Shown: positions 2,302-28,253 of the stretch, one piece after another | How positions within the stretch are numbered: position 1 is the stretch's first letter | Layout of the letters: every line of letters starts with the position of its first letter | DNA from: Alkalilimnicola ehrlichii MLHE-1 | Lineage (GTDB): Bacteria; Pseudomonadota; Gammaproteobacteria; Nitrococcales; Halorhodospiraceae | DNA: 32,000 nucleotides | NCBI RefSeq assembly: GCF_000014785.1 | Contig: NC_008340.1 | Location: forward strand, 2,700,001 to 2,732,000 | Reading direction: 5' to 3' | The notes under the pieces: model-generated | What the model saw: the letters and a program-made list of their open reading frames with translations, nothing else | What the model was told of the DNA's origin: nothing | Databases searched by the model: none | Made by a program: the position numbers and the translations under genes

Positions 2302-2340
2302 GGCGTCGGTTGGGCCCTTATCAAGTGGGAATGTCCGCGG

Positions 2341-3117: not shown

Positions 3118-3135
3118 AGGGGAATCTCCTGTGGG

Positions 3136-4893: not shown

Positions 4894-4977
4894 GGCTGAA
4901 TCCCCTGCTCTCTGCTCGCCAAAGGCTTATACACTAAGGATGTTGCAGCGCAGCGGTTGTTGCAAGGGGCAGAATGA

Positions 4978-6510: not shown

Positions 6511-6511
6511 C

Positions 6512-9877: not shown

Positions 9878-9902
9878 GGCCCCATCATACCCCCTGCCCC
9901 GG

Positions 9903-10721: not shown

Positions 10722-10723
10722 GG

Positions 10724-12766: not shown

Positions 12767-13401
12767 CGGTCGTTCTCCTTGCGCGGGAGGGCGAAAAGCC
12801 GGGTCACCGCCCCGGTGTGCTCCGCTTCCAGTTCAATCTCGACGGCGAGGGGCAGGTCCGCATTGGGCTGCTCCGGTGGGGGCCAGGCCCGGCTGGTGGT
12901 CCGCTCCCCGTCCAGGCCATGGTAGTGGAAGACGAAGGCGAGTACCTCCACGGTGTTGCCGGCCACCTCCCCCAGCATGGGCACCCGGCTTTGCGGCTCA
13001 TCCATGCCGCCGTCCACGGTGGGCCAGAGCAGCCGGTAGAGCACGCCGTCCTCCAGCTCCCAACCCACCCGTCGCAGCTCCGAGCGCACGCCGCGACTGC
13101 GCGCGCCAGCGCTCACCAGTTCCAGCCGCGGGGGCAGGCGCAGGTCGTCGAGCATCAGCCCGGGGCGGCGGTCGCCGTAGGCATCGCGCCGGGGCCGGTC
13201 CACCACCTGGTGCAGATCCCGCTGCAGCATGGCGAAGGCCAACTGCATCTCATCCAGTCGCTCCGCGGCCCGGTCGGTGTGCGCCCGGGCGTCCAGCACC
13301 GAGGTGAGGCCGCCGTAGGCCATGGCGGCCAGCAGGGAGAAGACCGCCATGGCCACCAGCAGCTCCAGGAGGGTGAAACCGCGCGACCGGTCAGAGGCCA
13401 T
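12763..13401 (-). CDS. gspJ: type II secretion system minor pseudopilin J
   Basis: The internal ATG at 13399-13401 gives MASDRSRGFTLLELLVAMAVFSLLAAMAYGG, a prepilin cleavage/methylation motif G-FTLLE. It is 212 aa and lies between gspI and the protease gene. Confidence 0.85.
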   Translation of the reverse strand: MASDRSRGFTLLELLVAMAVFSLLAAMAYGGLTSVLDARAHTDRAAERLDEMQLAFAMLQRDLHQVVDRPRRDAYGDRRPGLMLDDLRLPPRLELVSAGARSRGVRSELRRVGWELEDGVLYRLLWPTVDGGMDEPQSRVPMLGEVAGNTVEVLAFVFHYHGLDGERTTSRAWPPPEQPNADLPLAVEIELEAEHTGAVTRLFALPRKENDR

Positions 13402-13840
13402 CGAAGCCCCCCTCCTCCAGGTCATCGATCGTCCCCAGGCGGCCCCCCTCCGGGACCAGCACCACGCGGGCGGTGGCCAGGGGCTGTTGCTCGCGCGCCT
13501 GGTCGCGGTGGACCGCCACCTCCAGCCGGCGCAGCCCCGGGATGCCCGGCAGGCCCTCCAGCTCCGGCGCCCAGGGCGCCATCGTCGCCCGCCAATGCCA
13601 GTCGCGCCCGCCGAGACGCTCGACGCCTTCGGCGGGGCCGGACTCGGGCAGTGCCTCCAGCCGCGCCTGGAAGCGGTTGAGCTGATTGGCAGCCACCCAG
13701 TGGGCATGGGTCCGGTCGCGCAGATAGGCGGCGTTGGCGGCGTTCTCGCTGGCCACCTTGACGGCCGCGCCCAGGGCGGTGGCCAGGATGGCCAGCGCCA
13801 CCAGCACCTCCAGCAGGGTAAAGCCCCGTTGCCTAGCCAT
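13391..13840 (-). CDS. gspI: type II secretion system minor pseudopilin I
   Basis: The internal ATG at 13838-13840 gives MARQRGFTLLEVLVALAILATALGAA and the GspI-like block AYLRDRTHAHWVAANQL. It is 149 aa. Confidence 0.85.
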   Translation of the reverse strand: MARQRGFTLLEVLVALAILATALGAAVKVASENAANAAYLRDRTHAHWVAANQLNRFQARLEALPESGPAEGVERLGGRDWHWRATMAPWAPELEGLPGIPGLRRLEVAVHRDQAREQQPLATARVVLVPEGGRLGTIDDLEEGGFDGL

Positions 13841-14375
13841 CGGGCGCCTCCGTGTGCAGGCGCAGGCGCCCGGCCATGTCACCGGTGACGACCCGGATCC
13901 GGTCCGGGTCGCGCTGATCGCGCAGCGTGAGCTGGAACTCCGTCACCTCGCCGGTCCCATAGAGGTAGAGGTGGGGGTCGGGCTGTTCGGGCCGGTAGTC
14001 CAGGCGGACGTCCACGCCCTCCAGGCGCAACGCCAGTTCCATGTCCTCCGGCTCCAGGTCGCGGGGCCGGAGCTGGCGGTCGCGGTCCACCGGCAGCCAG
14101 GTGGTGAGGCCGTCCTCCACCTCCACCTCGTGCAGGAAGTGGTAGCCGTGCCGGGTCACCCCCACGGCCAACTCCGGGCCGCCGAGCATGACCTCCTGGC
14201 GGGCGAGGTCCACCAGGCTGATGAAGCGCCGGGCCTGCTCCTCCAACTGGCGGTCGCGGCCGCCATCGCCCACGGAGAGCACGGCGAGGCCGGTGAGCAA
14301 CCCCAGGATGATGATGACCGCCAGCAGCTCGAACAGGGTGAAGCCGGCGCTGGCCTTGGCGGGGCGGGGCATCAT
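13833..14375 (-). CDS. gspH: type II secretion system minor pseudopilin H
   Basis: 180 aa. The N-terminus AGFTLFELLAVIIILGLLTGLAV is a prepilin motif. It lies between gspG and gspI. Confidence 0.8.
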   Translation of the reverse strand: MMPRPAKASAGFTLFELLAVIIILGLLTGLAVLSVGDGGRDRQLEEQARRFISLVDLARQEVMLGGPELAVGVTRHGYHFLHEVEVEDGLTTWLPVDRDRQLRPRDLEPEDMELALRLEGVDVRLDYRPEQPDPHLYLYGTGEVTEFQLTLRDQRDPDRIRVVTGDMAGRLRLHTEAPDG

Positions 14376-14381
14376 CCGGCG

Positions 14382-14816
14382 TCAGTCCAGCGCCCAGTTG
14401 CCGATCTCCGCGTTGACGCCGGAGCCCCCCGGCTGACCGTCGGCACCGTAGCTGAAGATGTCGATGTCGCTGTGCTCGCCCGGGTTGAGGTATTGGTAGT
14501 CGTTGCCCCAGGGGTCCTTGGGCAGCCGGTCCAGGTAGCCGCCCTCGCGCCAGTTGCGCGGCTCGGGATTGCCGGTGGGCCGCTCCACCAGCGCCTCCAG
14601 GCCCTGGTCGGTGCTGGGATAGACGTTGTTGTCCAGGCGGTAGAGGTTGAGCGCGGACTCGATGGCGCGGATATCGGAGCGCGCCTTGCTGATCCGGGCG
14701 TCGTCGGGACGGTCCATGATCCGCGGCACCACGATACCGGCGAGGATGCCGAGGATGACCACCACCACCATGATCTCGATGAGGGTGAAGCCGCTTTGCC
14801 GTTGTCTAGCCATCAT
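14382..14816 (-). CDS. gspG: type II secretion system major pseudopilin G
   Basis: 144 aa. [34 protein letters not shown] plus the conserved blocks [33 protein letters not shown] and [16 protein letters not shown] lies upstream. Confidence 0.95.
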
Positions 14817-14845
14817 GCACTGGGACTCCTCAAGGGGTTACGGGC

Positions 14846-14899
14846 GCCACTATTGCGCCAACTGCCACTATTGCGCCAACTGCCACTATTGCACCAACT
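14846..14899. repeat. 18-bp tandem repeat x3 spanning the gspF stop codon and the gspF-gspG spacer
   Basis: gccactattgcgccaact occurs at 14846-14863 and 14864-14881, and gccactattgcaccaact at 14882-14899. On the coding strand each copy carries an in-frame TAG. Confidence 0.9.
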
Positions 14900-16100
14900 G
14901 ATTGAGTTCGAAGACCGGCAACAGGATGGCAAGCACGATCACCATGACCACGCCGCCCATGAGCAGGATCAGCAGCGGCTCGAACAGCCCCAGGAACATG
15001 CCGGTGAGGCTCTCCAGCTCCCGCTCCTGGTTCTCCGCCGCCCGGTCCAGCATCTGCTCCAGCTTGCCACCGGCCTCGCCGCTGGCGATCAGGTGCACGG
15101 TGATGGGCGGGAAGTAGCCGGTCCGTTCCAGGGCGTGGGCCAGACCGCTGCCCTCGCGCACGCGCCGGGCGGCCTCCTCCACCCCGCGCCGCATGGGGTC
15201 GTTGTTGACCACCGCGCCGGCCACCCGCAGCGCCTCCAGCACCGGCACGCTGCTGGCGGTGAGGATGCTCAGGGTGCGGGCAAAGCGGGCGGCGTTCACC
15301 CCCCGGGTCAGGCGCCCGATCAGGGGCAGTCGCAGCAGCAGGCTGTGCAGGGCGTAACGGGGCCCGGGCCGGCGCAGGATCCGGGCCAGCACCAGCAGCC
15401 CCACGATACCGCCGATCAGGCCGTAGAGGGCATAGTCGCGCATGAAGTCGCTGGTGACGATCAGCGACTGGGTGAGCAGCGGCAGATCCTGACCGATGTG
15501 GTCGAACACCCCCACCACCTCCGGCACCACGTAGGTGAGCAGGGTGAGGGTGACGCCGATGGCCATGACCGTGAGGATGATCGGGTAGAACAGCGCCATC
15601 TGCACCTTCTGGCGCATCTGCTGGCGGCCCTCGGTGTATTCCGCCAGCCGCTCCAGCACGATGTCCAGGTGGCCGGACTTCTCGCCGGCGGCTACCGTGG
15701 TGCGGTAGATATCGGGGAAGACGTGGGGGAAATCGCCCAACCCCTGGGCCAGGGTGTGACCCTCCAGCACGCGGTTGCGCACCGCCAGCATCAGGCTCTT
15801 GAGGCGGGGCTTGTCGGTCTGCCGGGAGACGGTGCGCAGGACGTCCTCCAGCGGCAGGCCGGAGCGCACCAGGGTGGCCATCTGGCGGGTGATCAGGGCC
15901 AGATCGGTGGCGCTGACCCCGCGGGTGAACAGCGGCCGGCGCACCGCACGCGCCTCCCGCTCCACCACGGCCTGCACGGCCAGGGGCGTAAGCCCGCGGT
16001 CGCGCAGTTGGGCGCGGACGTGACGCGGGGTGTCCCCCTCGAGCACACCCTTGCGCTGGCGGCCGCCCGGATCCAGTGCCTGATACTCGTAGGCGCCCAT
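14886..16100 (-). CDS. gspF: type II secretion system inner-membrane platform protein F
   Basis: 404 aa. MGAYEYQALDPGGRQRKGVLEGDTPRHVRAQLRDRGLTPL is the typical GspF N-terminus. Two repeated T2SSF domains and three TM segments are present. Confidence 0.95.
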   Translation of the reverse strand: MGAYEYQALDPGGRQRKGVLEGDTPRHVRAQLRDRGLTPLAVQAVVEREARAVRRPLFTRGVSATDLALITRQMATLVRSGLPLEDVLRTVSRQTDKPRLKSLMLAVRNRVLEGHTLAQGLGDFPHVFPDIYRTTVAAGEKSGHLDIVLERLAEYTEGRQQMRQKVQMALFYPIILTVMAIGVTLTLLTYVVPEVVGVFDHIGQDLPLLTQSLIVTSDFMRDYALYGLIGGIVGLLVLARILRRPGPRYALHSLLLRLPLIGRLTRGVNAARFARTLSILTASSVPVLEALRVAGAVVNNDPMRRGVEEAARRVREGSGLAHALERTGYFPPITVHLIASGEAGGKLEQMLDRAAENQERELESLTGMFLGLFEPLLILLMGGVVMVIVLAILLPVFELNQLVQ

Positions 16101-16258
16101 GCCCTATGCCTCGCCGGCCTCCCTGGCCCGTGGTGGTTCGCTGTGTGTGCTCATTCAGCGCAGGATACCCCACCCTGCGGCGGACCGTGAAGCGGCCTGA
16201 CGGCCCTGCCGCGGTGGCCAGCCACGGCCTTGGGATATGATGGCAGGGGAACGGACGC

Positions 16259-16738
16259 ATGCCGGTGGCGATAGGGGGCGATGGCTTGCAGGCGAACCCG
16301 CTGTACCCATTCAAGGATTGGTTGTTTCTGGCCGCACTGGCCGCCGGGCCGGCCGGGGCGCTGGCCTGGGTGATATTGACCGGGGAGCGGGCCGGCGACG
16401 GCAACCTGCTGACGCCCTGGCCCCTATTGATGCTGGTGGTGGTCTACCCGGTGCTCGAGGAGCTGGCCTTCCGCGGGTTGATTCAGGGGCTGCTGCTGCG
16501 TCCGCACTGGGGCCGTTACCGGGCGGGCCCGGTGAGCCTGGCCAATGCCCTGACCACCCTGGCCTTCGCCCTCAGCCACTGGCCCCGCGGCGGGGCGCTG
16601 CTGGCGCTGGGGGTGATCCCACCGGGGCTGATCTTCGGGTACTTCCGGGAGCGGCACGACGGGCTCTGGAGCCCGATCCTGCTCCACGGCTGGTATAACC
16701 TCTGCGTGATCACGGTGACGGCGACCTGGCCCGCCTGA
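16259..16738 (+). CDS. CPBP-family (CAAX protease / Abi) glutamic-type intramembrane protease, minimal 159-aa form
   Basis: Polytopic membrane protein with all three CPBP motifs: EELAFR (E67,E68,R72; gag gag at 16457-16462), FALSH (F103,H107) and HGWYN (H143,N147). It is divergent from gspF and convergent with the tagged CLCA-like gene. Confidence 0.85.
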   Translation: MPVAIGGDGLQANPLYPFKDWLFLAALAAGPAGALAWVILTGERAGDGNLLTPWPLLMLVVVYPVLEELAFRGLIQGLLLRPHWGRYRAGPVSLANALTTLAFALSHWPRGGALLALGVIPPGLIFGYFRERHDGLWSPILLHGWYNLCVITVTATWPA

Positions 16739-16763
16739 GCGGGCGCCGCGGGAAGAAACAAGC

Positions 16764-16787
16764 GGCCGGCGGGGGATCCCGCCGGCC
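16764..16787. terminator. Perfect 10-bp GC hairpin between convergent genes (possible bidirectional terminator)
   Basis: ggccggcggg (16764-16773), loop ggat, cccgccggcc (16778-16787). On the minus strand it is followed by the T-rich cttgtttcttcc. No clear T-tract follows on the plus strand. Confidence 0.45.
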
Positions 16788-16822
16788 GGTGGGTGGGTTA
16801 AGGGGGCCGGGGCCCCGCGCGC

Positions 16823-16951
16823 TCAGGCGCGGTGGCGACGACGGCCCAGGATGACGCCGAGCAGGGCCAGGATGGCCAGCAGCGGCAGGGTCGGGTCGGC
16901 GGGGCCACCGGCACTGTTGCCCGCCACGCTGCAGGCGGAACCCCGGCGGGT
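16823..16951 (-). other. C-terminal sorting tag copy 1 (TRRGSACSVAGNSAGGPADPTLPLLAILALLGVILGRRRHRA)
   Basis: Tripartite tail preceded by an acidic run (DEDEEEFEM): Cys-containing motif, hydrophobic helix, Arg cluster at the extreme C-terminus. It matches the tail at 20826-20954 at 31 of 42 residues. Confidence 0.8.
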
Positions 16952-19741
16952 CATCTCGAACTCCTCCTCATCCTCGTCCGTGATCCGGTCCGGTTCCGCG
17001 GGCTGGTCCGAGCTGATCACCGAGCCGGCGCTGACCTTGTAGGTGCCCTCGTCGGCGGTCTCATCCTCATGCTCGACCGTGACCACCAGGTCCTGCAGCT
17101 CCGCACCGCCAACCATACCTTCGTCATTGGCGGTCTCCAGCCAGTCCCGATCCAGGACGGTGTAGAGGTAGCCGTTGCGGGCGACGAAGTCCTCATCGTC
17201 CAGGCTGAAGGTCAGCAGCACCTCGCTGCCATCGCCGGTGTAGATCGTCACGATGGGCTGCATGCCCAGGCCAAAGGATGCCACCCGCAGAGAGACATCG
17301 CCCTCGTCCGGGACGCTGGTACCGACCAGGCGGAAGCAATCCCTATCGCTGGCGGCATCGATCCGCCCCGGGATAGTCGTGTTATCGGCCTCGAGCGGCG
17401 TGCAGGCGCCCGGCAGGGCGGGATCATCCGCGTGATCGTCGTCCTGAAAACCATCCACGGTGAACTGCGTGGTCGCCACGCGCTGGAAGTTCTCCGGGAT
17501 CGGCTCCGGATCCGGGGCCTGCACCTCCATGCCATTGATGTCCGGCGCCGGGGCCACACCCCCGTACACGAACTGGCCGGTCCCGGCCTGGTTGTCCACC
17601 CGGACGCGCAGCTCGTGGGTACCACCCTGCCGGTAGTTCACCACGGCCGAGTAGATGCCATCACCGGCCTCCGCGTCACCGTTCTGGCCCTCGTCGTTGA
17701 GCGGCACGGTGGTGACGTTCCCGTCGGGATCGGTCAGCTCGGCGACCACATTGACCCCCGAGACCATCCGCCCGGCGGAGATCGCGGCCGAGATCAGCGC
17801 GGGTGACGGGTATTCCACCGTGCTGCCACCCAGGGTACTGACCCGCACGTCAAAGGTCCGACCGTCCGCCGGGTTGGCCACCACATTCAGGAGCACCTCC
17901 ACTTCACCGCCGGAGGTATTCTCCCCGGTGTCGACGGTCCAGTCGCCGACGCCACCCGCCGATACCGCGTCGCGGTCCACGGTGGCGAGGCAGGAGACCT
18001 CATCGGCTGACTCGTCGCAGCTGAACGGGATTCCGGTGTCGTTGCCGTCACTGTCCAACAGCGTGGGGGACAACTGGTCGGCACTGCCGGTGAAGTTAAG
18101 GAGCACGGTCATCGAGCCCAGGGTGGGGTCCACGGTGAAGGTGAGCCGCTCGTTGGCGCCCGCAGCGACCGGCTGCGACTCCTGACTCAGGTTGACCGCA
18201 TCGGACACGGCGGCGTTGGCCGCCAGGAAGGCCTCCTGGATCTCGGCCAGGGTCGTGGGTGAGGCGAAGAACTCACCGCCGGTGTTATCGGCGAGCCGCC
18301 GCAACACCCCGGTGGGTGCGAAGCTGCCATAGCCGAAGGCGATGATGGGGACGTTGGCATCCTGGTAGGCCTGGACGGTCTGCGGCTCTGTCGCAGCGGA
18401 GCTGTTGTCGCCACCATCGGAGAGCAGGAAGGCCACCTGCCCGGCATCGGTATCGTTGGCGGCGCTGTAATCCTGCAGTTCGTCCAAGCCCAGTATCAGG
18501 CCATCGAACATGGCGGTCAGCCCGGAGGCCGGGAGGCTGTCGATGGCGTCCTTGAGCTGGTCCTTTTCCGCCGTACCCGGGTCCGGGATGGCGATCATGG
18601 GGTGGACCACCGAGGCACTCGCCGAGAAGCGCACGACGCCCATGGCGGTACGGCCAGGCTCGACCACATCCACCAGGGTCCGACCGGCTGTGCGGGCGTT
18701 GATGATGGGAGCGCCGCTCATGCTCCCGGAGGTGTCGACAATGAGCGAGATCTCCAGGTCATCGTCCATCCAGACGATCTCCAGCTCATCGCGGCAACCG
18801 TGATCCATCTGATCGAGCTGGGTGACCACCCAGTTATCCGCCGCCGTCGGCGCCACGGCCTCCAGGGCCGTATACCGGGTCCGGTCAGGCTGAACGGTCT
18901 CGTTACCCTCCTGTGGATCGTCGGTGGTGGGTTGGACCAACACCTCCCAGCCGCTCTTGCCGTAGACCCGGCCCTGGGCGGTATCCTCCGGATCGCCGAT
19001 GTTGTCACTGGTGGAGTGGTTCAACCACTCGTAGTTACCGCCGCGGGCCTGCCACTGGCTGTTCATGATGGCCGGGCTGGTGGGCACATCGCCAACCTGC
19101 GGGAAGGTATCGCGATTCTCCGCCGGGTCGCGCCCCTCGTACTCATCATACAGGGCAAGCACGTAGTGGCCCCACTCGTGCCCCAGGGTGTAGCCGGCGC
19201 CCTCGGCATCGGCCAGCATGTCGTAGTCGCAGCCATTACCGCAGCCGTCGGGGAAGATATCCCCCATCCAGATGTGCCGCCCGGCACTGCCGAACCCCGC
19301 GATACTGGCCCGCGGCCACTCCTCCTCGTTCCAGATAATGTCGGCCCGGGAGCCGTGGCCGCCGTTGGTGAAGACCCGCACGGTACCGAGCTGGCTGGCC
19401 CCGTTGCTCTGCTCGCAGACCGAGTCGGCGAAGTGTTCGATCACGGCCTCGTAGGGATCCCGCTCGTTTTCGGTCTCCGGGTTGTTGTGCAGGGAAATGG
19501 TGATATCGAAGACGGTCGTGCCGGCGTCCGTGGAGGCCCCCACCACCCGGTCGCTGCCCGCGGCGGTGAGGCCCTGGGCGCTCGCCGGGGCCGTATCGGC
19601 ACCGATCCGCGCCTTGGAGAACCAGGAATCCCCGGCGGAGAGCGGTGCGCTGATCATGGCGGCGCTGAGGCCGGCGCAGAACAGCCCGGTGTACCAGGAC
19701 CGCCGTTTCTCGACATGGCGGTCGACGTGTCTGATGTTCAT
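16823..19741 (-). CDS. secreted CLCA-like zinc metalloprotease - VWA domain - PPC domain protein with C-terminal Cys/TM/Arg sorting tag
   Basis: I chose the ATG at 19739-19741 (AGGAAGAGGAG upstream; MNIRHVDRHVEKRRSWYTGLFCAGLSAAMISAPLSAG signal peptide), giving 972 aa. HEWGHYVLALYDEY (HEWGH encoded at 19166-19180) matches the CLCA-type HExxH...DEY metallohydrolase motif. VWA MIDAS residues are present (DTSGSMSG, GLTAM, LSDGGDN). A pre-peptidase C-terminal-like domain follows (GRIDAASDRDCFRL). For the tail, see the tag feature. Confidence 0.85.
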   Translation of the reverse strand: MNIRHVDRHVEKRRSWYTGLFCAGLSAAMISAPLSAGDSWFSKARIGADTAPASAQGLTAAGSDRVVGASTDAGTTVFDITISLHNNPETENERDPYEAVIEHFADSVCEQSNGASQLGTVRVFTNGGHGSRADIIWNEEEWPRASIAGFGSAGRHIWMGDIFPDGCGNGCDYDMLADAEGAGYTLGHEWGHYVLALYDEYEGRDPAENRDTFPQVGDVPTSPAIMNSQWQARGGNYEWLNHSTSDNIGDPEDTAQGRVYGKSGWEVLVQPTTDDPQEGNETVQPDRTRYTALEAVAPTAADNWVVTQLDQMDHGCRDELEIVWMDDDLEISLIVDTSGSMSGAPIINARTAGRTLVDVVEPGRTAMGVVRFSASASVVHPMIAIPDPGTAEKDQLKDAIDSLPASGLTAMFDGLILGLDELQDYSAANDTDAGQVAFLLSDGGDNSSAATEPQTVQAYQDANVPIIAFGYGSFAPTGVLRRLADNTGGEFFASPTTLAEIQEAFLAANAAVSDAVNLSQESQPVAAGANERLTFTVDPTLGSMTVLLNFTGSADQLSPTLLDSDGNDTGIPFSCDESADEVSCLATVDRDAVSAGGVGDWTVDTGENTSGGEVEVLLNVVANPADGRTFDVRVSTLGGSTVEYPSPALISAAISAGRMVSGVNVVAELTDPDGNVTTVPLNDEGQNGDAEAGDGIYSAVVNYRQGGTHELRVRVDNQAGTGQFVYGGVAPAPDINGMEVQAPDPEPIPENFQRVATTQFTVDGFQDDDHADDPALPGACTPLEADNTTIPGRIDAASDRDCFRLVGTSVPDEGDVSLRVASFGLGMQPIVTIYTGDGSEVLLTFSLDDEDFVARNGYLYTVLDRDWLETANDEGMVGGAELQDLVVTVEHEDETADEGTYKVSAGSVISSDQPAEPDRITDEDEEEFEMTRRGSACSVAGNSAGGPADPTLPLLAILALLGVILGRRRHRA

Positions 19742-19823
19742 TGCGTTCTCCTCTTCCTTCTTTCGCCTTTGCTCAACAGAATCTGCTCCCTGCTTGTTGG
19801 CTACGTCCTGTTCGATCAGTCGG

Positions 19824-20627
19824 TCAGTGCCGTTGGAAGATCTGGACCAGACCCGATGCCTCCCCCACGGCGGCGCGATAGGCACGCCCCGGTTCTATTC
19901 CGAGGCCCGCGAGATCGTCCGTGCCACAGGGGGCGAGGGGCACAAAGCGGCCCGGGTTGGCCTCGGCCTCCTGCAGCTCAGGGTGGTCAGCCAGGGTGTC
20001 TGCCGAAACCGCCACCTGGGGCGACCGGCGCGCGCCCTCCGGCGCGGGCAGAAATTGGAGGTAATGACCCTCCGGCTGTTCAGTGAGGGACACCTCAGCG
20101 GTCAGTACCTGGAGCGCATCGGCCAGCGCCGCGAGGGCCTCAGGCAACGCCTCAGGCTCCCCGCTCCCGATAAAGCGCTTGCCCGCCGGGCTCCGATAAG
20201 CGAAGTACAGCCGTGTCGGCCGGAAGTCGGAGATAGGCCCGTCCGCTTCCGGTCGGGCCAACGTGTGATCGCCGGTGAGGTACTGCGAGAGGGCGTGGAA
20301 TCGCGCCGGTGCAATGCGACCGGAACGCACCTCCGGAAGGGCGCCATCCGTGCGGTAGTGGGCCGTCTGGAGTCGACCCGCGGCATCCAGGCGCACGGTA
20401 TGGCCGTCGGTATGGCGGCCACCCAGCCCCCCTTCAATGCGGGCCATGTAAACGAAGGCCGCCCCGGGTACGCCGCCATCGGCGTGCACCGGGGCCACAG
20501 GCAGTCCAACCGCGGCCACCAGGCCCAGCATCACCCCCAGGGCCAGCCCCACACACCACCCCCTGTCGGGGAAGCGGTGCAGCCGATTCGGATCCGTTGG
20601 AGTGATCAGGCACATGGTTACCGCCAT
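19824..20627 (-). CDS. hypothetical secreted/periplasmic protein
   Basis: Start chosen at the ATG at 20625-20627 (GGAGAGG upstream); the ATG at 20613-20615 is an alternative. N-terminal hydrophobic segment GWCVGLALGVMLGLVAAVGLPVAPVHA. I recognise no domain. It lies between the two tagged cargo genes. Confidence 0.55.
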   Translation of the reverse strand: MAVTMCLITPTDPNRLHRFPDRGWCVGLALGVMLGLVAAVGLPVAPVHADGGVPGAAFVYMARIEGGLGGRHTDGHTVRLDAAGRLQTAHYRTDGALPEVRSGRIAPARFHALSQYLTGDHTLARPEADGPISDFRPTRLYFAYRSPAGKRFIGSGEPEALPEALAALADALQVLTAEVSLTEQPEGHYLQFLPAPEGARRSPQVAVSADTLADHPELQEAEANPGRFVPLAPCGTDDLAGLGIEPGRAYRAAVGEASGLVQIFQRH

Positions 20628-20825
20628 TGGCCTCTCCGTTCCGCAATCTGCAGGCACGCAAAGCGCATCACCACACTCTGCGAGCCGCAGCTGGGCATCC
20701 CTGCAGCCAGCCCCACAATCCAGCGGAGGGCGGGGTGCGCCAAACGAGGTCTACGCACCGACCGCCTCATCCCTAAGGTGGTCGGCGCGCAGCCCGGGAA
20801 CCTCCTTCAAGTCGTCAGCGTGACT

Positions 20826-20954
20826 TCAATCTGCGCGACGGCGACGGCCGACCAGGGCGCCGAGCAGGGCCAGGACGGCCAGCAGCGGCAGGGTCGGGTC
20901 GGCGGGACCCGCCGCACCGGTACCGGTCACGCTGCAGGCGGAGCCCCGGCGGGT
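20826..20954 (-). other. C-terminal sorting tag copy 2 (TRRGSACSVTGTGAAGPADPTLPLLAVLALLGALVGRRRRAD)
   Basis: Same tripartite tail after an acidic run (DDPDDEEHE). Nucleotide blocks 20859-20909 and 20928-20955 match 16856-16906 and 16925-16952 with 2 and 1 mismatches. Confidence 0.8.
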
Positions 20955-22676
20955 CCGTTCATGCTCCTCGTCGTCGGGGTCGTCCACCACGCCGTCCAAG
21001 GCCTGGGCAAGGACCGTGTTGCAGTCACTCTCGTCGGTGGTCACCGCGAGCCCCTGGAAGACCTCAGACTCGTCGTCATCGTTGGCCCGCATCTCCACCT
21101 CGATCTGCACATAGCGGCCCTCGACGCCATCCGGCAGCGGCTCTCCGGGCGTGAAGACCTGGAAAGGGGCGGCTTCCAGGGCCTCGAGAGAGTCTGCGGC
21201 ACGGATGCGGTAGGTACTCTCCGCGTTCTCGGGGGACTCGGTGATGCTGACGCAGCTATCGGCCCAGACGTACTCCGGAATGTCCTCCTCCTGGGTTCCA
21301 CCCACCTGAGCCGCGGCCACCGTGCCGCCGCCGGCCGCGCCGAGCACCTCTCGCACGTGGCCATCGACAATGATCCGGCCGATGCCCGTGCGACGCCCGA
21401 GGCCCCGGGTACCCAGGCCCGTCGCATCGCTATAGGTGTAGGGCCCGGCACCGGAGAGGAAGACCCCGAGGGGCTCGCCATCCTCGCCGCGGTACTTGGA
21501 CAGGCGGTCATGATTGACGTGAATGGCCCAGACATCGCCGTTGGCGTCCAGCACCACGCCACGCACATGCCCGGTGTCCTCCTGCGCCGGGGACTCCCAG
21601 ATCAGATCGCCATCGGGGGTGTATTTGGCCACGCCCCCGGCAGAGGAGTCGCCCACCACGACATTGCCGTCGGGACCGTAGGCGATCCCCAGCACGCTCA
21701 TGTTGTCGTCACTGGGGTCATCGAACTCCTCCGTTGCCTTATTGAAGCGAATGAAGGGGTTAACGCCCAAGAAGACGTAGTCGTCGGAAACGGCAATCCC
21801 GTAATTGGACCCGAACCCTGAATGACTGTGTCTGGCCACCCACTCCCCGGTGTTGGTATTCAGCTGGCCCAGGTCACTGCCGAGGGCAGCACTCCAGAGC
21901 ATCCCGTCCCCATCCACCAGACAGCCATAGGGGGTATGGCCTTCCGTGTCGATTGGCCCCTGCAGCACCTGACCGGTGTCGCTGTCCAGCTGGTAGTAGG
22001 CCTGCCCCCTGTACATGCCCAGCCAGATCTGACCGTCGTTGTCGATGCACAGCGAGCGCCCCAAGTCGTTGTCATTGCCCACGGTGACGTGCCAGGCGAT
22101 CCGGTCGTCCTGCAGGTCCTCCGGATCCACCCGGCCGGTGTTGTTGGTGTCCTCCAGGGGCATCATCTCGGTGTCCGGGTCGATCATCCCCTCGCCATCC
22201 TCGTTGCGCGAGGTGTTCACCTGGCCGTCGCCCGCGTGGTCCACCGCCTCTTCATTCAGGATCTTGAGCACGGCGGGCGGCCGTCCGTCAAAGTGGCGGT
22301 TGGCGACATAGACATTCCCGCGGCTGTCCACCGCGGTACGGGAGGGCGCGGGGCCACCCCACGGGGAGCTGCTGGCCTGCTCGGGGAAGAAGGTCCAGTA
22401 GCGCGCCAGTTCCACCCCGGTGTTGGTGTCAATCTTGGACACCGAGGCCTCACCGGCATTGGCGACCCAGATGATGGGGAAGGTGGAGACCTCCTCGCTC
22501 ACCCGCATGACCCCATTATCGAACAGCAGCCCATTGTGCGTGCCGTTCTCTTCGATATCCTGGGGCAAGACCACGATACCTGCACCGTGACTCGCTGTGC
22601 TAGCTGCCAGCAGCAGGGCGCCCACGCTCGCACCCAGGCCAACCCGGCCAACCCGATTCTTGATTAACGGTTTCAT
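20826..22676 (-). CDS. secreted beta-propeller repeat protein with the same C-terminal Cys/TM/Arg sorting tag
   Basis: Start chosen at the ATG at 22674-22676 (GAGGAGG 6 nt upstream). Signal peptide MKPLIKNRVGRVGLGASVGALLLAASTASHGAG. Blade-like repeats are present (DSRGNVYVAN, IDNDGQIWLG, VDGDGMLWSA, GPDGNVVVGD, TPDGDLIWES, LDANGDVWAI), resembling NHL or Vgb-lyase-type propellers. For the tail, see the tag feature. Confidence 0.8.
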   Translation of the reverse strand: MKPLIKNRVGRVGLGASVGALLLAASTASHGAGIVVLPQDIEENGTHNGLLFDNGVMRVSEEVSTFPIIWVANAGEASVSKIDTNTGVELARYWTFFPEQASSSPWGGPAPSRTAVDSRGNVYVANRHFDGRPPAVLKILNEEAVDHAGDGQVNTSRNEDGEGMIDPDTEMMPLEDTNNTGRVDPEDLQDDRIAWHVTVGNDNDLGRSLCIDNDGQIWLGMYRGQAYYQLDSDTGQVLQGPIDTEGHTPYGCLVDGDGMLWSAALGSDLGQLNTNTGEWVARHSHSGFGSNYGIAVSDDYVFLGVNPFIRFNKATEEFDDPSDDNMSVLGIAYGPDGNVVVGDSSAGGVAKYTPDGDLIWESPAQEDTGHVRGVVLDANGDVWAIHVNHDRLSKYRGEDGEPLGVFLSGAGPYTYSDATGLGTRGLGRRTGIGRIIVDGHVREVLGAAGGGTVAAAQVGGTQEEDIPEYVWADSCVSITESPENAESTYRIRAADSLEALEAAPFQVFTPGEPLPDGVEGRYVQIEVEMRANDDDESEVFQGLAVTTDESDCNTVLAQALDGVVDDPDDEEHERTRRGSACSVTGTGAAGPADPTLPLLAVLALLGALVGRRRRAD

Positions 22677-22740
22677 TTCCATCCTCCTCAGCAAACCGGT
22701 GGAGCGGCCCCGTTCAGGGCCCCGCCCCGCCCCAAGTTAG

Positions 22741-23805
22741 TCACTGCCCTGTGCGGGGCGAATGCATGTATGCGGGCTGCGCAAACACCAGCGACGGCTC
22801 CGCACCATCGACCCGACCGCGAAACAATTCCGCTGCACCGCCCTTTTGCGACACGAAGACAACCTCCCCCCCATCATTTGGCAGCCAGACCGGCTGAGCC
22901 AGCTGTCCGTCAAGGGTGGCGACCGTTACCGGTCGGCCGTCATCGGGGAAGCGGGAGGCGTAGATATTGGTCTTGGTCTCCTCCGGAGCGGGGGTCGCCG
23001 TGGAGGCATAGACGAGCCAGTCCCCGTCGGTGGACCAAACCGGGAAACCCCGTACGTTGCCCGGGGCGGACGCGACCTGCTCCGAGTGGCCCTCCTGAAC
23101 GTGCAACACGTAAAGTTGCACCTCGCGGCGGTTATCGGTGGAGGCGGTATAGGCCAGGTAATCGCCGCTGGGGTGCCAGGCGAGGGACTGCACATTCCCG
23201 GCATGCCGGTCATTGGGCACCAGGATACTGTGCCCGTCGTCCTCAAGATCGATCACCATGATGGCATTGCCACCCTCGCCCCCGGGCCGCGCGATGACAG
23301 CCAACTGCCCCCCATCCGGCGACCAACGCAGGGCCTCCGGAGAACGCACCGCCTCGCTGAGCAACCGCGCCTCCCCGGTGGCCAGGTCCAGTAGGAAGAC
23401 CCCGCGCGGACTGACCCGGCTGGAGGTGAAGGCGAGATAATCGCCGGAGGGGTGCCACTGGGGCATGAAGTCCATGCGCTCGCTGTGGGTGAGACGTTGC
23501 TGGTTGCTGCCGTCTGCGTCCATCAGGTAGATATCGCCGTTGCCGTCCCGCCGGGAGACAAAGGCAATCCGCTGGCGGTCAGGCGACCAGCGCGGGTCCA
23601 TGTCGGAGTGGGCCGGATCGGTCAACCGGACAATCGCGCCATCATTAAGACTGGCCGAGTAGATGCTCTGTGCCCCTTCCTGGTTGGAGACGAAGAGCAC
23701 GGCCGCGTCATCAGGCTTATCGTCCGCCGCCAGGGCCATACCCGGCAGGACCATGAGCCCGACCAGGAGGCCCAACCACCCTTGTTTGCGCTTACTCACT
23801 AACAA
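22741..23805 (-). CDS. periplasmic TolB-like PD40 (WD40-like) beta-propeller protein
   Basis: Signal peptide (KRKQGWLGLLVGLMVLPGMALA) followed by PD40-type repeats (PRWSPDRQRIAFVSRRDGNGDIYLMDADGSNQQRLT, PQWHPSGDYLAFTS, LRWSPDGGQLAV, LAWHPSGDYLAYT, PVWSTDGDWLVYAS). The track ORF starts at a TTG (23803-23805); a GTG at 23797-23799 is equally plausible. It overlaps the upstream small gene. Confidence 0.75.
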   Translation of the reverse strand: MLVSKRKQGWLGLLVGLMVLPGMALAADDKPDDAAVLFVSNQEGAQSIYSASLNDGAIVRLTDPAHSDMDPRWSPDRQRIAFVSRRDGNGDIYLMDADGSNQQRLTHSERMDFMPQWHPSGDYLAFTSSRVSPRGVFLLDLATGEARLLSEAVRSPEALRWSPDGGQLAVIARPGGEGGNAIMVIDLEDDGHSILVPNDRHAGNVQSLAWHPSGDYLAYTASTDNRREVQLYVLHVQEGHSEQVASAPGNVRGFPVWSTDGDWLVYASTATPAPEETKTNIYASRFPDDGRPVTVATLDGQLAQPVWLPNDGGEVVFVSQKGGAAELFRGRVDGAEPSLVFAQPAYMHSPRTGQ

Positions 23806-24118
23806 TCACCCTTGTCTCGGCCAGCGGGGCGCCCGACGGGGAATAGGCCCGGAGCCGGTATTCGCCCGGCGCCATCCCCTCCAGCTCGAAGCGCAACGCA
23901 CCGTCCTCATCGGCCCGGATCGATTCAATGGTGTGACCACCACCCTCCCGGATCAGGTCCAGGTGCAATTCGGCCTCCGGCTGAAAGTTACCGCCCTGCA
24001 CCACTACGGTATCGCCCTCGTACAGCCCACTAGGAACGGTGAGAAAGGCACTTTGGGCTGTCACTATTCCCGGCAGGACGAGCGCGCCCGCAGACAACCA
24101 GGTCATCAGTCTTTTCAT
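23792..24118 (-). CDS. small secreted hypothetical protein (about 108 aa)
   Basis: Internal ATG at 24116-24118 with AGGAGAAG upstream. Signal peptide MKRLMTWLSAGALVLPGIVTAQSAF. The mature part looks all-beta (possibly Ig-like or carboxypeptidase-regulatory-like). It is the first gene after the AT-richer spacer. Confidence 0.55.
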   Translation of the reverse strand: MKRLMTWLSAGALVLPGIVTAQSAFLTVPSGLYEGDTVVVQGGNFQPEAELHLDLIREGGGHTIESIRADEDGALRFELEGMAPGEYRLRAYSPSGAPLAETRVIVSE

Positions 24119-24551
24119 CGGTCTTCTCCTACACCACGGTCTTTTGCTACGGCCCCGTGACCACCGGCATTGGCGCCAACGCCTGTCTCCGGGCCCAACT
24201 CGGAACCGCCCCAGTACATCCTCACCACCCGGAACCACATCGCCTGTATATGCGCACCGTATGAACCGAATGTGGCCGCCACACGAAACAACTACACCCC
24301 ATTATGTCGGTATCCGCAATAGCCTGTTTCTGGATAATAGCGCAGCCCCTGAAGATTGCACTAGCGTGAATAACACCCAAACAACAGTTCTGTCAGTTTT
24401 TTTTACGCAGCCAGTGGAACCTTGGCGCATCCAAGGGATTCTGACTAATTATTCAACGTATCGCCCACCGATTCCCGACTGTCAAGTGAGGGAACATCGG
24501 CAGGGACCAATGTGGGCAGGAAGTGCCTGAAAGGGCTGTTAACAGGCCCGG
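24119..24551 (-). promoter_or_regulatory. AT-richer 433-bp non-coding spacer, probable promoter/regulatory region of the cargo operon
   Basis: It is the longest non-coding stretch in the gsp cluster and visibly less GC-rich than its flanks. A perfect minus-strand TTGACA hexamer lies at 24480-24485, but no convincing -10 follows at 17 nt (GATACG; TACGTT at 19 nt). Confidence 0.3.
24533..24549 (-). terminator. weak hairpin immediately after the gspE stop codon
   Basis: The minus strand reads gggcctgttaacagccc followed by tttcagg. The stem is 6 bp with one bulge and the U-tract is short. Weak evidence. Confidence 0.3.
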
Positions 24552-26099
24552 CTATTCCTCGCGGGTGACCCGCAGGACCTCCTCGACAGAGGTCTCGCCG
24601 GACAGCACCCGTCGGACGCCGTCGGCCCGGATGCTGGGGGTGAGGGTGCGGGCGTGGTGCTCCATCTGCTGCTCGCCGGCGCCGTCGTGGATCATGGTGC
24701 GCAGGGTTTCGTCCAGGGCGATGATCTCGTAGATGCCGGTGCGCCCCTGGTAGCCGGTCTGATGGCAGGCGTCGCAGCCGACCGGGGCGTGCAGGGTGGG
24801 TGGGTGTTGCGGGTCCAGGCCCAGCAGTTCGCATTCCGTGGCATCGGCGGTGTAGGGCTGGCGGCACTCCGGGCAGAGCAGCCGCACCAGGCGCTGGGCC
24901 ATCATGCCCAGCATACTGGAGGAGAGCAGGTAGGGTTCCACGCCCATGTCGCGCAGACGGGTGACCGCACCGATGGCGGTGTTGGTGTGGAGGGTGGAGA
25001 GCACCAGGTGGCCGGTGAGGCTGGCCTGGACGGCGATCTGTGCGGTCTCCAGGTCGCGGATCTCGCCGATCATGACCACGTCCGGGTCCTGGCGCAGGAT
25101 GGCGCGCAGGCCGCGGGCGAAGGTCATGTCCACCTTGGTGTTCACCTGTGTCTGGCTGACCCCGTCCAGGTAGTACTCGATGGGGTCCTCCACCGTCATG
25201 ATGTTGCGCTGCCGGTCGTTGATCCGGCTGATCGCGGCGTAGAGGGTGGTGGTCTTGCCCGACCCGGTGGGGCCGGTGACCAGCAGGATGCCGTGCGGCT
25301 TGTTGACCAGATCGGCCATGCACCGCAGGGTCTTCGGCTCCATGCCCAGGTGGGTCAGATCCAGCCGGCCGGCCCGCTTGTCCAGCAAGCGCAACACCAC
25401 GCGCTCGCCCTGCCCGGCCGGCAGCGTGGAGACCCGCACGTCCACGGCGCGGCCGGCCACCCGTAGGGAGATGCGGCCGTCCTGGGGCAGGCGCTTTTCC
25501 GCGATGTCGAGCTCGGCCATGACCTTGATGCGGGAGGTGAGCAGCGGGGCCAGGCCCACCGGCGGCTGCAACACCTCGCGCAGCACGCCGTCCACCCGGA
25601 AGCGCACCGTCATGCGGTGCTCGAAGGTCTCGATGTGGATGTCGGAGGCGTCCTCCTTGATGGCCTCGGTGAGCAGCGCGTTGATGAGGCGGATGATGGG
25701 CGCATCATCCTCGCTCTCCATCAGGTCCTCGGGCTCGGCCAGTTGCTCGGCGACGCTGTGCAGGTCCAGGTCGTCGCCGAGGCCGGCCATCATCTCGGCC
25801 GCTTCACCGGCGCTGCGCTCGTAGCACGCCTGCAGGTACTGGTTGAAGGTCTCGTCATCCACCTCCTCCAGGGCCAGCGGCCGCCCGAGCTGGCGGCGCA
25901 GTTCCACCAGGGCCTGGGGGCTGACGTCGGCGCGGCAGGCGATGCGGGCCGCCGCGTCGCTCCAATCCAGCGGCACGGCACCGTGGCGCCGGGCCCAGTT
26001 GAAGGAGACCGGACGGTGCTCCGAGACCGTGGGCGGCGGCCCCTCACCGCCCTGCAAGGCATCCAGTTGTTCGTCCACCGCGCTCATGGTCGGCAGCAT
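24552..26099 (-). CDS. gspE: type II secretion system ATPase E
   Basis: 515 aa. Walker A GPTGSGKTT, Asp box and Walker B (DPDVVMIGEIRD), His box (TGHLVLSTLHTN) and a tetracysteine motif (CPECRQ...C-DACHQTGYQGRTGIYE). The N-terminal GspE N1/N2 domains are present. Confidence 0.95.
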   Translation of the reverse strand: MLPTMSAVDEQLDALQGGEGPPPTVSEHRPVSFNWARRHGAVPLDWSDAAARIACRADVSPQALVELRRQLGRPLALEEVDDETFNQYLQACYERSAGEAAEMMAGLGDDLDLHSVAEQLAEPEDLMESEDDAPIIRLINALLTEAIKEDASDIHIETFEHRMTVRFRVDGVLREVLQPPVGLAPLLTSRIKVMAELDIAEKRLPQDGRISLRVAGRAVDVRVSTLPAGQGERVVLRLLDKRAGRLDLTHLGMEPKTLRCMADLVNKPHGILLVTGPTGSGKTTTLYAAISRINDRQRNIMTVEDPIEYYLDGVSQTQVNTKVDMTFARGLRAILRQDPDVVMIGEIRDLETAQIAVQASLTGHLVLSTLHTNTAIGAVTRLRDMGVEPYLLSSSMLGMMAQRLVRLLCPECRQPYTADATECELLGLDPQHPPTLHAPVGCDACHQTGYQGRTGIYEIIALDETLRTMIHDGAGEQQMEHHARTLTPSIRADGVRRVLSGETSVEEVLRVTREE

Positions 26100-26254
26100 A
26101 ACCCACGGGGGTGGGCCGGTGAAGCCGGCCCTGCGACAACTCGCTGCATGTCCGCTGCAACCGGTCGTGGTTCAATTACAATTGGAATTGCGACATTGTT
26201 TAATGTTCGCGCGGACATTTCCCATCACGCGGCTATTGAGCCAGGGGTACCAAG

Positions 26255-28150: not shown

Positions 28151-28175
28151 CGTTGCCGCGGTGCCACCCAGGGCT

Positions 28176-28209
28176 CGGCCGGCGTCTCAGGGCGCCGGCC
28201 GTTTTTTTT
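28176..28209 (+). terminator. rho-independent terminator
   Basis: cggccggcg (28176-28184), 8-nt loop tctcaggg, cgccggccg (28193-28201), then T8 (28202-28209). It lies 26 nt after the lipoprotein stop codon. Confidence 0.8.
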
Positions 28210-28253
28210 GACGGAGCGCGGTGAGCCGGTACGGCCGCCGGCCCACCGCCGGT

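What the first reader, a model, noticed from the sequence alone, without database searches (positions are those of the whole stretch)
16259..22676. T2SS cluster carrying its own CPBP intramembrane protease and two cargo proteins with a shared Cys-containing C-terminal tag (candidate sorting system)
Seen: gspE (24552-26099) and gspF (14886-16100) are adjacent in canonical gspC-N operons. Here about 8.45 kb separates them. On the gsp strand the insert encodes five proteins with N-terminal signal peptides. On the opposite strand, next to gspF, it encodes a 159-aa polytopic protein with all three CPBP/CAAX-protease motifs intact (EELAFR, FALSH, HGWYN). The two largest cargo proteins are the CLCA-like metalloprotease-VWA protein (16823-19741) and the beta-propeller protein (20826-22676). 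Their passenger domains are unrelated, but both end in the same 42-aa tail: an acidic run, TRRGSACSV, a Gly/Ala/Ser/Pro linker, the hydrophobic helix ADPTLPLLA(I/V)LALLG, and a GRRR basic cluster. Established: this motif / TM helix / Arg-cluster layout is that of PEP-CTERM, GlyGly-CTERM and MYXO-CTERM tags. GlyGly-CTERM (rhombosortase) and MYXO-CTERM cargo are exported through the T2SS. Myxosortase-type processing enzymes belong to the CPBP family. Inference: secretion machine, candidate tag-processing protease and tagged substrates are fused into one locus. This predicts T2SS-dependent export followed by CPBP cleavage near the invariant Cys, possibly with lipid attachment, giving surface-retained enzymes. 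I cannot tell from memory whether this exact tag belongs to an already catalogued MYXO-CTERM-like family (for example JDVT-CTERM with its Mrt-type protease), so novelty is unverified.
Basis: partly seen in the sequence, partly recalled or inferred. Interest (0 to 1): 0.85.

Follow-up and report, generated by a model that had tools for sequence, protein, structure and literature searches.

The report
Known JDVT-CTERM/MrtJ sorting system in T2SS operon
This is an already catalogued protein-sorting system, in which a C-terminal "JDVT-CTERM" address tag is paired with its dedicated membrane protease MrtJ; the modestly unusual points are that it sits inside a type II secretion operon and serves two cargo proteins instead of one.

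Summary
All ORFs, the three CPBP motifs and the two near-identical 42-aa tails (31/42 identical) are at the stated coordinates. It is not new. The 159-aa protein scores above the curated cutoff of NCBIfam NF033192 (MrtJ, 101 bits against 75). Both tails score above the cutoff of NF033191 (JDVT-CTERM, 36.5 and 33.7 bits against 27). The window comes from Alkalilimnicola ehrlichii MLHE-1, and RefSeq already names these proteins MrtJ and "JDVT-CTERM domain-containing protein". Haft described the system in silico in 2023, and its sister enzyme MrtX was validated experimentally in 2025. Three points are incremental. (1) The mrtJ-cargo pair lies inside or directly beside a gsp operon here and in six other scattered genomes, a linkage the JDVT papers I read do not report. 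(2) There are two tagged cargos where the norm is one. (3) The second cargo sits in a 4.0-kb segment bounded by a direct repeat of the tag-coding DNA. A sister strain lacks this segment and carries a hybrid tag, so recombination has occurred within the tag. MrtJ cleavage, Cys lipidation and T2SS dependence are inferred by homology and have not been shown.

The parts
16259..16738 (+). mrtJ: a 159-aa, roughly 5-TM CPBP glutamic-type intramembrane protease (WP_011630126.1)
   Evidence: NF033192 scores 101.4 bits (cutoff 75) and PF02517 scores 66 bits. The catalytic residues are invariant. The AlphaFold model is all-helical with pLDDT 91.8. The RefSeq name is MrtJ.
16823..19741 (-). Cargo A: a secreted VWA / CLCA-like (HEWGH) / choice-of-anchor X protein with a JDVT-CTERM tail. 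The tail is coded at about 16823-16951.
   Evidence: NF033191 scores 36.5 bits (cutoff 27), NF041940 scores 49.6 bits and the VWA domain 52.6 bits. It is 100% identical to an A. ehrlichii MLHE-1 protein.
19824..20657 (-). ORF of up to 277 aa with no family match (true start uncertain). It is part of the 4-kb segment that carries cargo A.
   Evidence: No Pfam or NCBIfam hit. It is absent from relatives L081, L087 and L088.
20826..22676 (-). Cargo B: a secreted NHL/Vgb-lyase-like beta-propeller with a JDVT-CTERM tail (WP_011630129.1)
   Evidence: NF033191 scores 33.7 bits (cutoff 27). RefSeq names it 'JDVT-CTERM domain-containing protein'. It is conserved next to mrtJ in L081 and L087.
22741..23805 (-). 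TolB-like PD40 beta-propeller with no tag, conserved alongside cargo B
   Evidence: PF07676 scores 98 bits. It occupies the same position in L081, L087 and L088.
23792..24238 (-). Small secreted protein (annotated as 108 aa) with no tag, conserved alongside cargo B
16836..16972 (-). Tag-coding direct repeat, copy 1 (ancestral-type tail, now on cargo A)
   Evidence: the repeat finder family D1. Alignments with L081 and L088.
20839..20975 (-). Tag-coding direct repeat, copy 2 (on cargo B), 4003 nt from copy 1
16763..16788 (-). Hairpin of 11 G-C pairs followed by a T-rich run, after the cargo A stop codon. It lies between the convergent cargo A and mrtJ genes and looks like a terminator.
   Evidence: It is conserved in L081 and L088.
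14886..16100 (-). gspF, divergent from mrtJ across a 158-nt spacer
   Evidence: TIGR02120 scores 503 bits.
24552..26099 (-). gspE
   Evidence: TIGR02533 scores 701 bits.
7327..31264 (-). The surrounding T2SS cluster, gspC, D, E ... F, G, H, I, J, [S8 protease], K, L, M, N

Best explanation
The locus is a JDVT-CTERM/MrtJ protein-sorting system of Alkalilimnicola ehrlichii MLHE-1, embedded in the gsp (type II secretion) operon.

Proposed pathway:
1. Cargo A and cargo B are exported by Sec through their N-terminal signal peptides.
2. Each stays tethered in the inner membrane by the tag helix (ADPTLPLLA...), with the Arg cluster in the cytoplasm.
3. The invariant Cys just outside the helix is modified, probably lipidated, by an enzyme not encoded in this window.
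4. MrtJ, a minimal CPBP glutamic intramembrane endopeptidase, cuts on the C-terminal side of that Cys.
5. The co-encoded T2SS moves the folded proteins to the cell surface or the medium.

Shown here: family membership of the enzyme and of both tags, the gene arrangement, and its recurrence in other genomes. Inferred by homology to MrtX/MYXO-CTERM: cleavage, the cleavage site, lipidation and T2SS dependence.

Cargo A lies in a 4.0-kb segment that three relatives lack. The segment is bounded by a duplicated copy of the tag-coding DNA.
For: Family membership: MrtJ model NF033192 scores 101.4 bits (cutoff 75). JDVT-CTERM model NF033191 scores 36.5 and 33.7 bits (cutoff 27). MYXO-CTERM is below its cutoff. 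RefSeq gives the same names.

Published basis: Haft's preprint (10.1101/2023.06.07.544157) reports mrtJ adjacent to the tagged gene in 16 of 17 cases, a top phylogenetic-profile score of 94.6 against 41.9 for the next protein, and NF033192 hits only in genomes that have the tag. For the sister system, MrtX cleaves MYXO-CTERM in a Cys-dependent way, also in E. coli, and is needed for surface display (PMC11980579).

Found here: a JDVT-type tail sits next to the mrtJ homolog in 27 of the first 80 loci (HMM), and in 29 of all 88 sequences including the window (regex).

T2SS linkage: gspC-N surround the pair in this window. The same arrangement is seen in L081 and L088. Independently placed mrtJ-cargo pairs lie inside or directly beside gsp clusters in L002, L006, L011, L026, L064 and L068, and these are scattered in an MrtJ neighbour-joining tree. 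With about 1% expected by chance, the binomial P is 1.6e-4 for 6 of 80 loci and 9e-3 for 4 independent events.

Tag modularity: homologs of cargo A elsewhere end in several different tail types or carry no tag.
Against: No experiment on MrtJ or on any JDVT-CTERM protein was found in the searched library. No lipid-transfer enzyme is encoded in the window. Most MrtJ loci (about 73 of 80) have no gsp gene within 10 kb, so physical linkage to the T2SS is the exception. In L001, gspEF lie 7 kb from mrtJ with unrelated genes in between and no tagged neighbour. The signature here (RRGSACSV, with DP 12 residues after the Cys) departs from the usual GGGC motif with DP about 9 residues after the Cys (one search compared). 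In the sister strain, cargo B is split by an IS element, so the system is dispensable there.
Confidence: 0.8

Rival explanations
1. The tag is only a temporary inner-membrane tether. MrtJ acts as a sheddase that releases unmodified, soluble cargo into the periplasm for ordinary T2SS secretion into the medium, with no lipid and no surface retention.
For: Cleavage is the only activity shown for the sister enzyme. Lipidation of MYXO-CTERM is still only predicted, and TraA and VesB are partly released into the medium. The cargos look like extracellular enzymes (a metalloprotease-like VWA protein and a propeller). No lipid-transfer gene is in the window.
Against: The Cys is invariant across JDVT, MYXO, Synerg and CGP tags. 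Rce1 and MmRce1 cleave only after the Cys has been lipidated. MrtX cleavage needs the Cys residues.
Confidence: 0.15
2. The tail is a permanent, uncleaved C-terminal membrane anchor. The CPBP protein is an Abi or bacteriocin-immunity-type protein unrelated to the cargo, and its adjacency to the gsp genes is a chance insertion.
For: CPBP proteins are often annotated 'abortive infection protein', and UniProt uses that name for this protein. Most MrtJ loci are not near a T2SS.
Against: The protease and the tag co-occur: 16 of 17 pairs are adjacent and the phylogenetic-profile signal is strong (Haft), and 27 adjacent pairs were seen here. The protein scores above the equivalog cutoff for MrtJ. The tag helix has conserved positions (DP and TLPLL). 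The gsp linkage recurs at different insertion points.
Confidence: 0.04

Closest known systems
JDVT-CTERM / MrtJ system (Haft 2023; NCBIfam NF033191 and NF033192; reference protein WP_006748948.1 of Thioalkalivibrio paradoxus)
   Same: The tag has the same three-part layout with a single Cys, a DP motif at the start of a Leu-rich helix and an Arg cluster. The protease is a roughly 150-aa minimal CPBP encoded next to its cargo. Both score above the curated cutoffs, and RefSeq uses these names for these proteins.
   Different: There are two tagged cargos in one locus, where the description says typically one per proteome and where this was the only case among the 88 sequences examined (87 fetched loci plus this window). 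The pair is embedded between gspE and gspF, and no T2SS neighbourhood was reported for JDVT. The signature is RRGSACSV instead of GGGC, and the spacer between the Cys and DP is longer.
MYXO-CTERM / myxosortase MrtX (Myxococcus xanthus; PMC11980579)
   Same: The tag has a Cys-containing motif, a TM helix and an Arg cluster. The protease is a homologous CPBP (Mrt_core E = 1e-13). The cargo needs the T2SS. This is the only experimentally tested relative and the source of the mechanistic model.
   Different: MrtX is a housekeeping enzyme with more than 30 clients that are not linked to it, and it carries extra N-terminal TM helices. MYXO-CTERM often has two Cys and lacks DP. Both tails here score below the TIGR03901 cutoff (15.6 and 17.5 bits against 20), and the MrtX model scores 28 bits against 180.
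GlyGly-CTERM / rhombosortase (Vibrio cholerae VesB)
   Same: A C-terminal three-part tag is removed by a dedicated intramembrane protease, followed by T2SS-dependent delivery to the surface. The enzyme is often encoded next to a single target.
   Different: The protease is an unrelated rhomboid serine protease. The signature is GG rather than Cys, and glycerophosphoethanolamine is attached (as cited).
Synerg-CTERM / MrtS
   Same: It is a Cys tag with a CPBP protease. This is the one Mrt system for which T2SS genes had already been linked by comparative genomics: 9 of the 12 top-scoring phylogenetic-profile hits were T2SS proteins.
   Different: It belongs to a different phylum, has a shorter tag, and uses a divergent T2SS subclass. 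The link there comes from phylogenetic profiling, not from operon embedding. MrtS scores 38.7 bits against a cutoff of 130 here.

Membership tests
MrtJ (NF033192, equivalog) | HMM score above the curated cutoff | tested here: met
   101.4 bits against a cutoff of 75, covering model positions 1-97 of 98.
MrtJ (NF033192, equivalog) | CPBP catalytic motifs EExxxR, FxxxH and HxxxN intact | tested here: met
   E67, E68, R72, H107, H143 and N147 are invariant in 23 homologs. PF02517 scores 66.4 bits.
MrtJ (NF033192, equivalog) | Encoded next to, and co-occurring with, a JDVT-CTERM protein | tested here: met
   mrtJ is convergent with cargo A, 84 nt apart. In relatives it is adjacent to cargo B. In the first 80 loci, 27 have an adjacent tagged ORF.
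MrtJ (NF033192, equivalog) | Rce1-like fold confirmed against a solved structure | tested here: inconclusive
   The AlphaFold model is confident (pLDDT 91.8). Foldseek against the PDB gave no hit with E below 1, and a profile search of PDB sequences returned only spurious GlpG matches at E = 0.23.
MrtJ (NF033192, equivalog) | Endoproteolytic cleavage of the tag | not testable with these tools
   This needs co-expression and western blot or mass spectrometry. It has been shown only for the paralog MrtX.
JDVT-CTERM (NF033191, domain) | HMM score above the curated cutoff at the extreme C-terminus | tested here: met
   Cargo A scores 36.5 bits (residues 933-969 of 972). Cargo B scores 33.7 bits (residues 577-613 of 616). 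The cutoff is 27.
JDVT-CTERM (NF033191, domain) | Single invariant Cys, nearly invariant DP at the start of a Leu-rich TM helix, Arg cluster | tested here: met
   Each tail has one Cys, the sequence ADPTLPLLA(I/V)LALLG, and GRRR. The DP lies 12 residues after the Cys, against about 9 in the family description. Other loci vary from 9 to 12.
JDVT-CTERM (NF033191, domain) | Typically one tagged protein per proteome | tested here: not met
   There are two in this locus. This was the only such case among the 88 sequences examined (87 fetched loci plus this window). This is a tendency of the family, not a criterion. The rest of the genome was not scanned.
MYXO-CTERM (TIGR03901) | HMM score above the cutoff | tested here: not met
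   15.6 and 17.5 bits against a cutoff of 20.
Type II secretion system (gspC-N) | Core components present in one cluster | tested here: met
   GspC, D, E, F, G, H, I, J, K and L score above their NCBIfam cutoffs. GspM and GspN are found by Pfam. The prepilin peptidase gspO is not in the window.
CLCA (hCaCC, TIGR00868), for cargo A | HMM score above the cutoff | tested here: not met
   76.8 bits against a cutoff of 900.85, a partial match over the VWA region. An HEWGH (HExxH) motif is visible in the sequence. This is a resemblance only.

The most novel reading that the evidence does not exclude
In several proteobacterial lineages the JDVT-CTERM/MrtJ pair would be a dedicated accessory module of a T2SS operon. 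The tag-coding DNA itself would act as a portable stretch of homology through which new passenger genes are captured in frame or lost again. Both would go beyond what has been described for this system. The linkage would be the first genomic evidence that JDVT cargo uses the T2SS.
Probability: 0.35. Interest if true: 0.4.

Novelty: already known. Interest (0 to 1): 0.22.

Why it matters
The find matters little as a discovery, because the family, its HMMs and the names of these particular proteins are already public. It has some practical value. A. ehrlichii MLHE-1 is a cultivated organism with the protease, two unrelated tagged substrates and the whole T2SS on one 24-kb stretch. A natural sister strain lacks one cargo and has the other disrupted. 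That makes it a compact system for the still-missing experimental test of MrtJ, covering cleavage, the Cys modification and T2SS dependence. The recurrent embedding in gsp operons adds comparative support for T2SS export of JDVT cargo.

Tried and rejected
- Foldseek of a confident MrtJ model against the PDB found nothing (best E = 1.9). A PDB sequence-profile search returned only chance GlpG matches. The Rce1-like fold therefore rests on Pfam and NCBIfam alone.
- The supplementary tables of Haft's preprint, which list the species, are not held. I could not check whether A. ehrlichii was among his 26 JDVT-positive genomes.
- I looked for a lipid-transfer or other Cys-modifying enzyme in the window and found none.
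- I considered MYXO-CTERM membership. Both tails score below the cutoff.
- I considered the T2SS adjacency as pure chance. I rejected this because the embedding recurs at different insertion points in scattered MrtJ lineages. The statistical support is only moderate once related loci are collapsed (P about 0.009 at a 1% background and 0.08 at 2%).
- My tail HMM and regex recovered tags in only about a third of the MrtJ loci. Variant tags such as the 'DW' and 'DG' forms in L006 and L011 are missed, so the counts are lower bounds.
- The direction of the 4-kb event cannot be fixed with certainty. It could be a gain in the A. ehrlichii lineage followed by a deletion in the sister strain, or a Campbell-type single-crossover insertion into a hybrid-type tail.


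Full report
**1. Observation**

gspF (14886-16100) and gspE (24552-26099) lie on the minus strand, 8451 nt apart. They score 503 and 701 bits on the GspF and GspE equivalog models.

Five minus-strand ORFs lie between them:
- cargo A, 16823-19741, 972 aa
- an ORF of up to 277 aa, 19824-20657
- cargo B, 20826-22676, 616 aa
- a TolB-like PD40 propeller, 22741-23805
- a small protein, 23792-24238

On the plus strand, divergent from gspF and convergent with cargo A, lies a 159-aa CPBP protein (16259-16738). Its EELAFR, FALSH and HGWYN motifs are present. E67, E68, R72, H107, H143 and N147 are invariant across 23 homologs.

The two tails are identical at 31 of 42 residues, while the passenger domains are unrelated. 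Cargo A has VWA, CLCA-like and choice-of-anchor X regions. Cargo B is an NHL/Vgb-lyase-like propeller. The signal peptides were judged by eye only.

**2. What it is**

- The CPBP protein scores 101.4 bits on NF033192, "JDVT-CTERM system glutamic-type intramembrane protease MrtJ" (cutoff 75).
- The tails score 36.5 and 33.7 bits on NF033191, "JDVT-CTERM" (cutoff 27).
- MYXO-CTERM (TIGR03901) stays below its cutoff.

Cargo A is 100% identical to a protein of Alkalilimnicola ehrlichii MLHE-1. An exact look-up shows that RefSeq already names WP_011630126.1 "JDVT-CTERM system glutamic-type intramembrane protease MrtJ" and WP_011630129.1 (cargo B) "JDVT-CTERM domain-containing protein". In the name returned for cargo A it is called only "vWA domain-containing protein", but it passes the same model.

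**3. What is known**

Haft's 2023 preprint (10.1101/2023.06.07.544157) defines JDVT-CTERM. The tag has a single invariant Cys, a DP motif in a Leu-rich helix and an Arg cluster. It typically occurs on one protein per proteome. The tagged gene was adjacent to the CPBP gene in 16 of 17 cases. Phylogenetic profiling gave that protease a score of 94.6 against 41.9 for the next candidate.

The proposed mechanism has three steps: modification of the Cys by a separate enzyme, cleavage just after the Cys by the Rce1-like protease, and export. The sister enzyme MrtX has been validated experimentally (PMC11980579). It cleaves MYXO-CTERM in a Cys-dependent way, also in E. coli, and is needed for surface display. 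T2SS dependence is known for MYXO-CTERM and GlyGly-CTERM.

I found no experiment on MrtJ. Neither paper reports a T2SS neighbourhood for JDVT. [quoted passage not shown]

**4. Context in this window**

The window holds a complete gspC-N cluster that is interrupted several times.
- The JDVT block lies between gspE and gspF.
- A 680-aa S8 protease with a CFI-box-CTERM domain lies between gspJ and gspK.
- A 631-aa lipoprotein-like ORF lies on the plus strand between gspD and gspE.

A hairpin of 11 G-C pairs with a T-rich tail follows cargo A (16763-16788). The likely transcription units are therefore gspE through cargo A as one unit, with mrtJ and gspF-N transcribed divergently from the 158-nt spacer. 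This is inference.

**5. Relatives**

A scan of one genome per species returned 80 loci with MrtJ homologs.
- JDVT-type tails lie next to mrtJ in 27 of these 80 loci (HMM).
- gsp genes lie within 10 kb in L001, L002, L006, L011, L026, L064 and L068.

In six of these seven, the mrtJ-cargo pair is inside or directly beside the gsp cluster, at different points:
- between gspF and gspG in L006 and L011, and directly upstream of gspG in L002, where the contig ends upstream of the cargo
- after gspF in L026
- after gspL in L064
- divergent from gspG in L068

In L001, gspEF are 7 kb from mrtJ, unrelated genes lie between them, and no tagged neighbour is present.

The T2SS-linked loci fall in at least five separate places in a rough MrtJ neighbour-joining tree. 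With a chance expectation of about 1%, 6 of 80 gives P = 1.6e-4. Four independent events give P = 9e-3. The linkage is therefore recurrent, but it is a minority arrangement.

**6. Micro-evolution of the locus**

A close metagenomic relative (L081, MrtJ 88% identical) has the order gspF, mrtJ, cargo B, TolB-like gene, p107, gspE, with no cargo A and no 277-aa ORF. So does L087, at 77% identity.

L081 aligns to window 6509-16972 and to 20833-24134, and its tail region matches both window tails. The window therefore carries an extra 4003-nt segment bounded by a 137-nt direct repeat of tag-coding DNA, with the copies 82% identical. The tail of cargo A, together with the terminator hairpin, is the copy that resembles the cargo B tail of the outgroups.

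A second A. ehrlichii strain (CP184336, locus L088, 98-99% identical) also lacks the segment. Its cargo B is split by an IS4-type transposase. Its tail is a hybrid: the 5' part is identical to the window's cargo B tail, and the 3' part plus the terminator is identical to the window's cargo A tail. The switch lies inside an 18-nt stretch that the two copies share.

This shows that recombination has occurred between the tag repeats. The simplest history is a gain of [277-aa ORF + cargo A] with tag duplication in the A. ehrlichii lineage, followed by deletion in the sister strain. The alternative, a single-crossover insertion into a hybrid-type tail, cannot be excluded.

Homologs of cargo A in other organisms end in several different tail types. 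By eye these resemble GlyGly-CTERM, IPTL-CTERM, CFI-box and PEP-CTERM tags, and some proteins carry no tag at all. This fits the "choice-of-anchor X" domain found in cargo A and confirms that the tail is a modular address label.

**7. Mechanism and rivals**

Best explanation (confidence about 0.8): Sec export, then tethering in the inner membrane by the tag helix, then Cys modification, then MrtJ cleavage, then delivery by the T2SS.

Membership and gene arrangement are shown here. The biochemical steps are inferred from MrtX, Rce1 and MmRce1.

Two rivals remain:
- A sheddase model without a lipid anchor (about 0.15).
- An uncleaved anchor with an unrelated Abi-type CPBP protein (about 0.04). 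This one is contradicted by the co-occurrence and adjacency data.

**8. Verdict**

The incremental points are the T2SS-operon embedding, which recurs in other lineages, the two cargos in one locus, and the recombination within the tag. These deserve a note rather than a high score.

Noticed in passing
window 10724-12766 (-): A 680-aa subtilisin-like (S8) protease with a fervidolysin-type prodomain is inserted between gspJ and gspK. It ends in a CFI-box-CTERM domain (NF041770, 83.7 bits, cutoff 40; sequence ...GGGGGGGGCFIATAAWGSEW...). This is a second, different Cys-containing C-terminal domain in the same T2SS operon. It is conserved in L081 and L088. Some cargo A homologs in other organisms end in similar GGGGCFI tails.
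   Followed up: partly
window 26255-28150 (+): A 631-aa lipoprotein-like ORF (Mlg_2400; ...LALAGCSSSSSSG...) lies on the opposite strand between gspD and gspE. It has no Pfam or NCBIfam match and is conserved in the sister strain L088.
   Followed up: no
L088 7691-11119 (A. ehrlichii strain CP184336): In the sister strain, cargo B is split into 261-aa and 372-aa pieces by a DDE_Tnp_1 (IS4-type) transposase, and cargo A is absent. That strain has no intact JDVT cargo at this locus even though mrtJ is intact.
   Followed up: partly
L086 1-6293: An MrtJ homolog at 75% identity sits directly downstream of IS66-family transposase genes, a Tn5-type dimerisation domain and a DruA-domain gene, in place of gspF. 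The pair appears to move with, or be disrupted by, mobile elements.
   Followed up: no
L006 7078-8844 and L011 8226-9977: The S8-like cargos inside these Burkholderiales-type gsp operons carry variant tails (GGGGC...DW or DG in place of DP). These score weakly or not at all on a JDVT tail model, although an MrtJ homolog is adjacent.
   Followed up: partly
window 6512-7330 (-): The ORF after gspN gave no Pfam hit at E <= 0.001 in my scan. Its orthologs in L081 and L088 are recorded with PF04254 (DUF432). The discrepancy is unexplained.
   Followed up: no
window 892-5841: The left flank holds unrelated housekeeping genes: an MscS-type channel (4978-5841), PHA synthase PhaC (3136-4893), an enoyl-ACP-reductase-like SDR (2341-3117) and a MaoC-PTA fusion (892-2301).
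   Followed up: no
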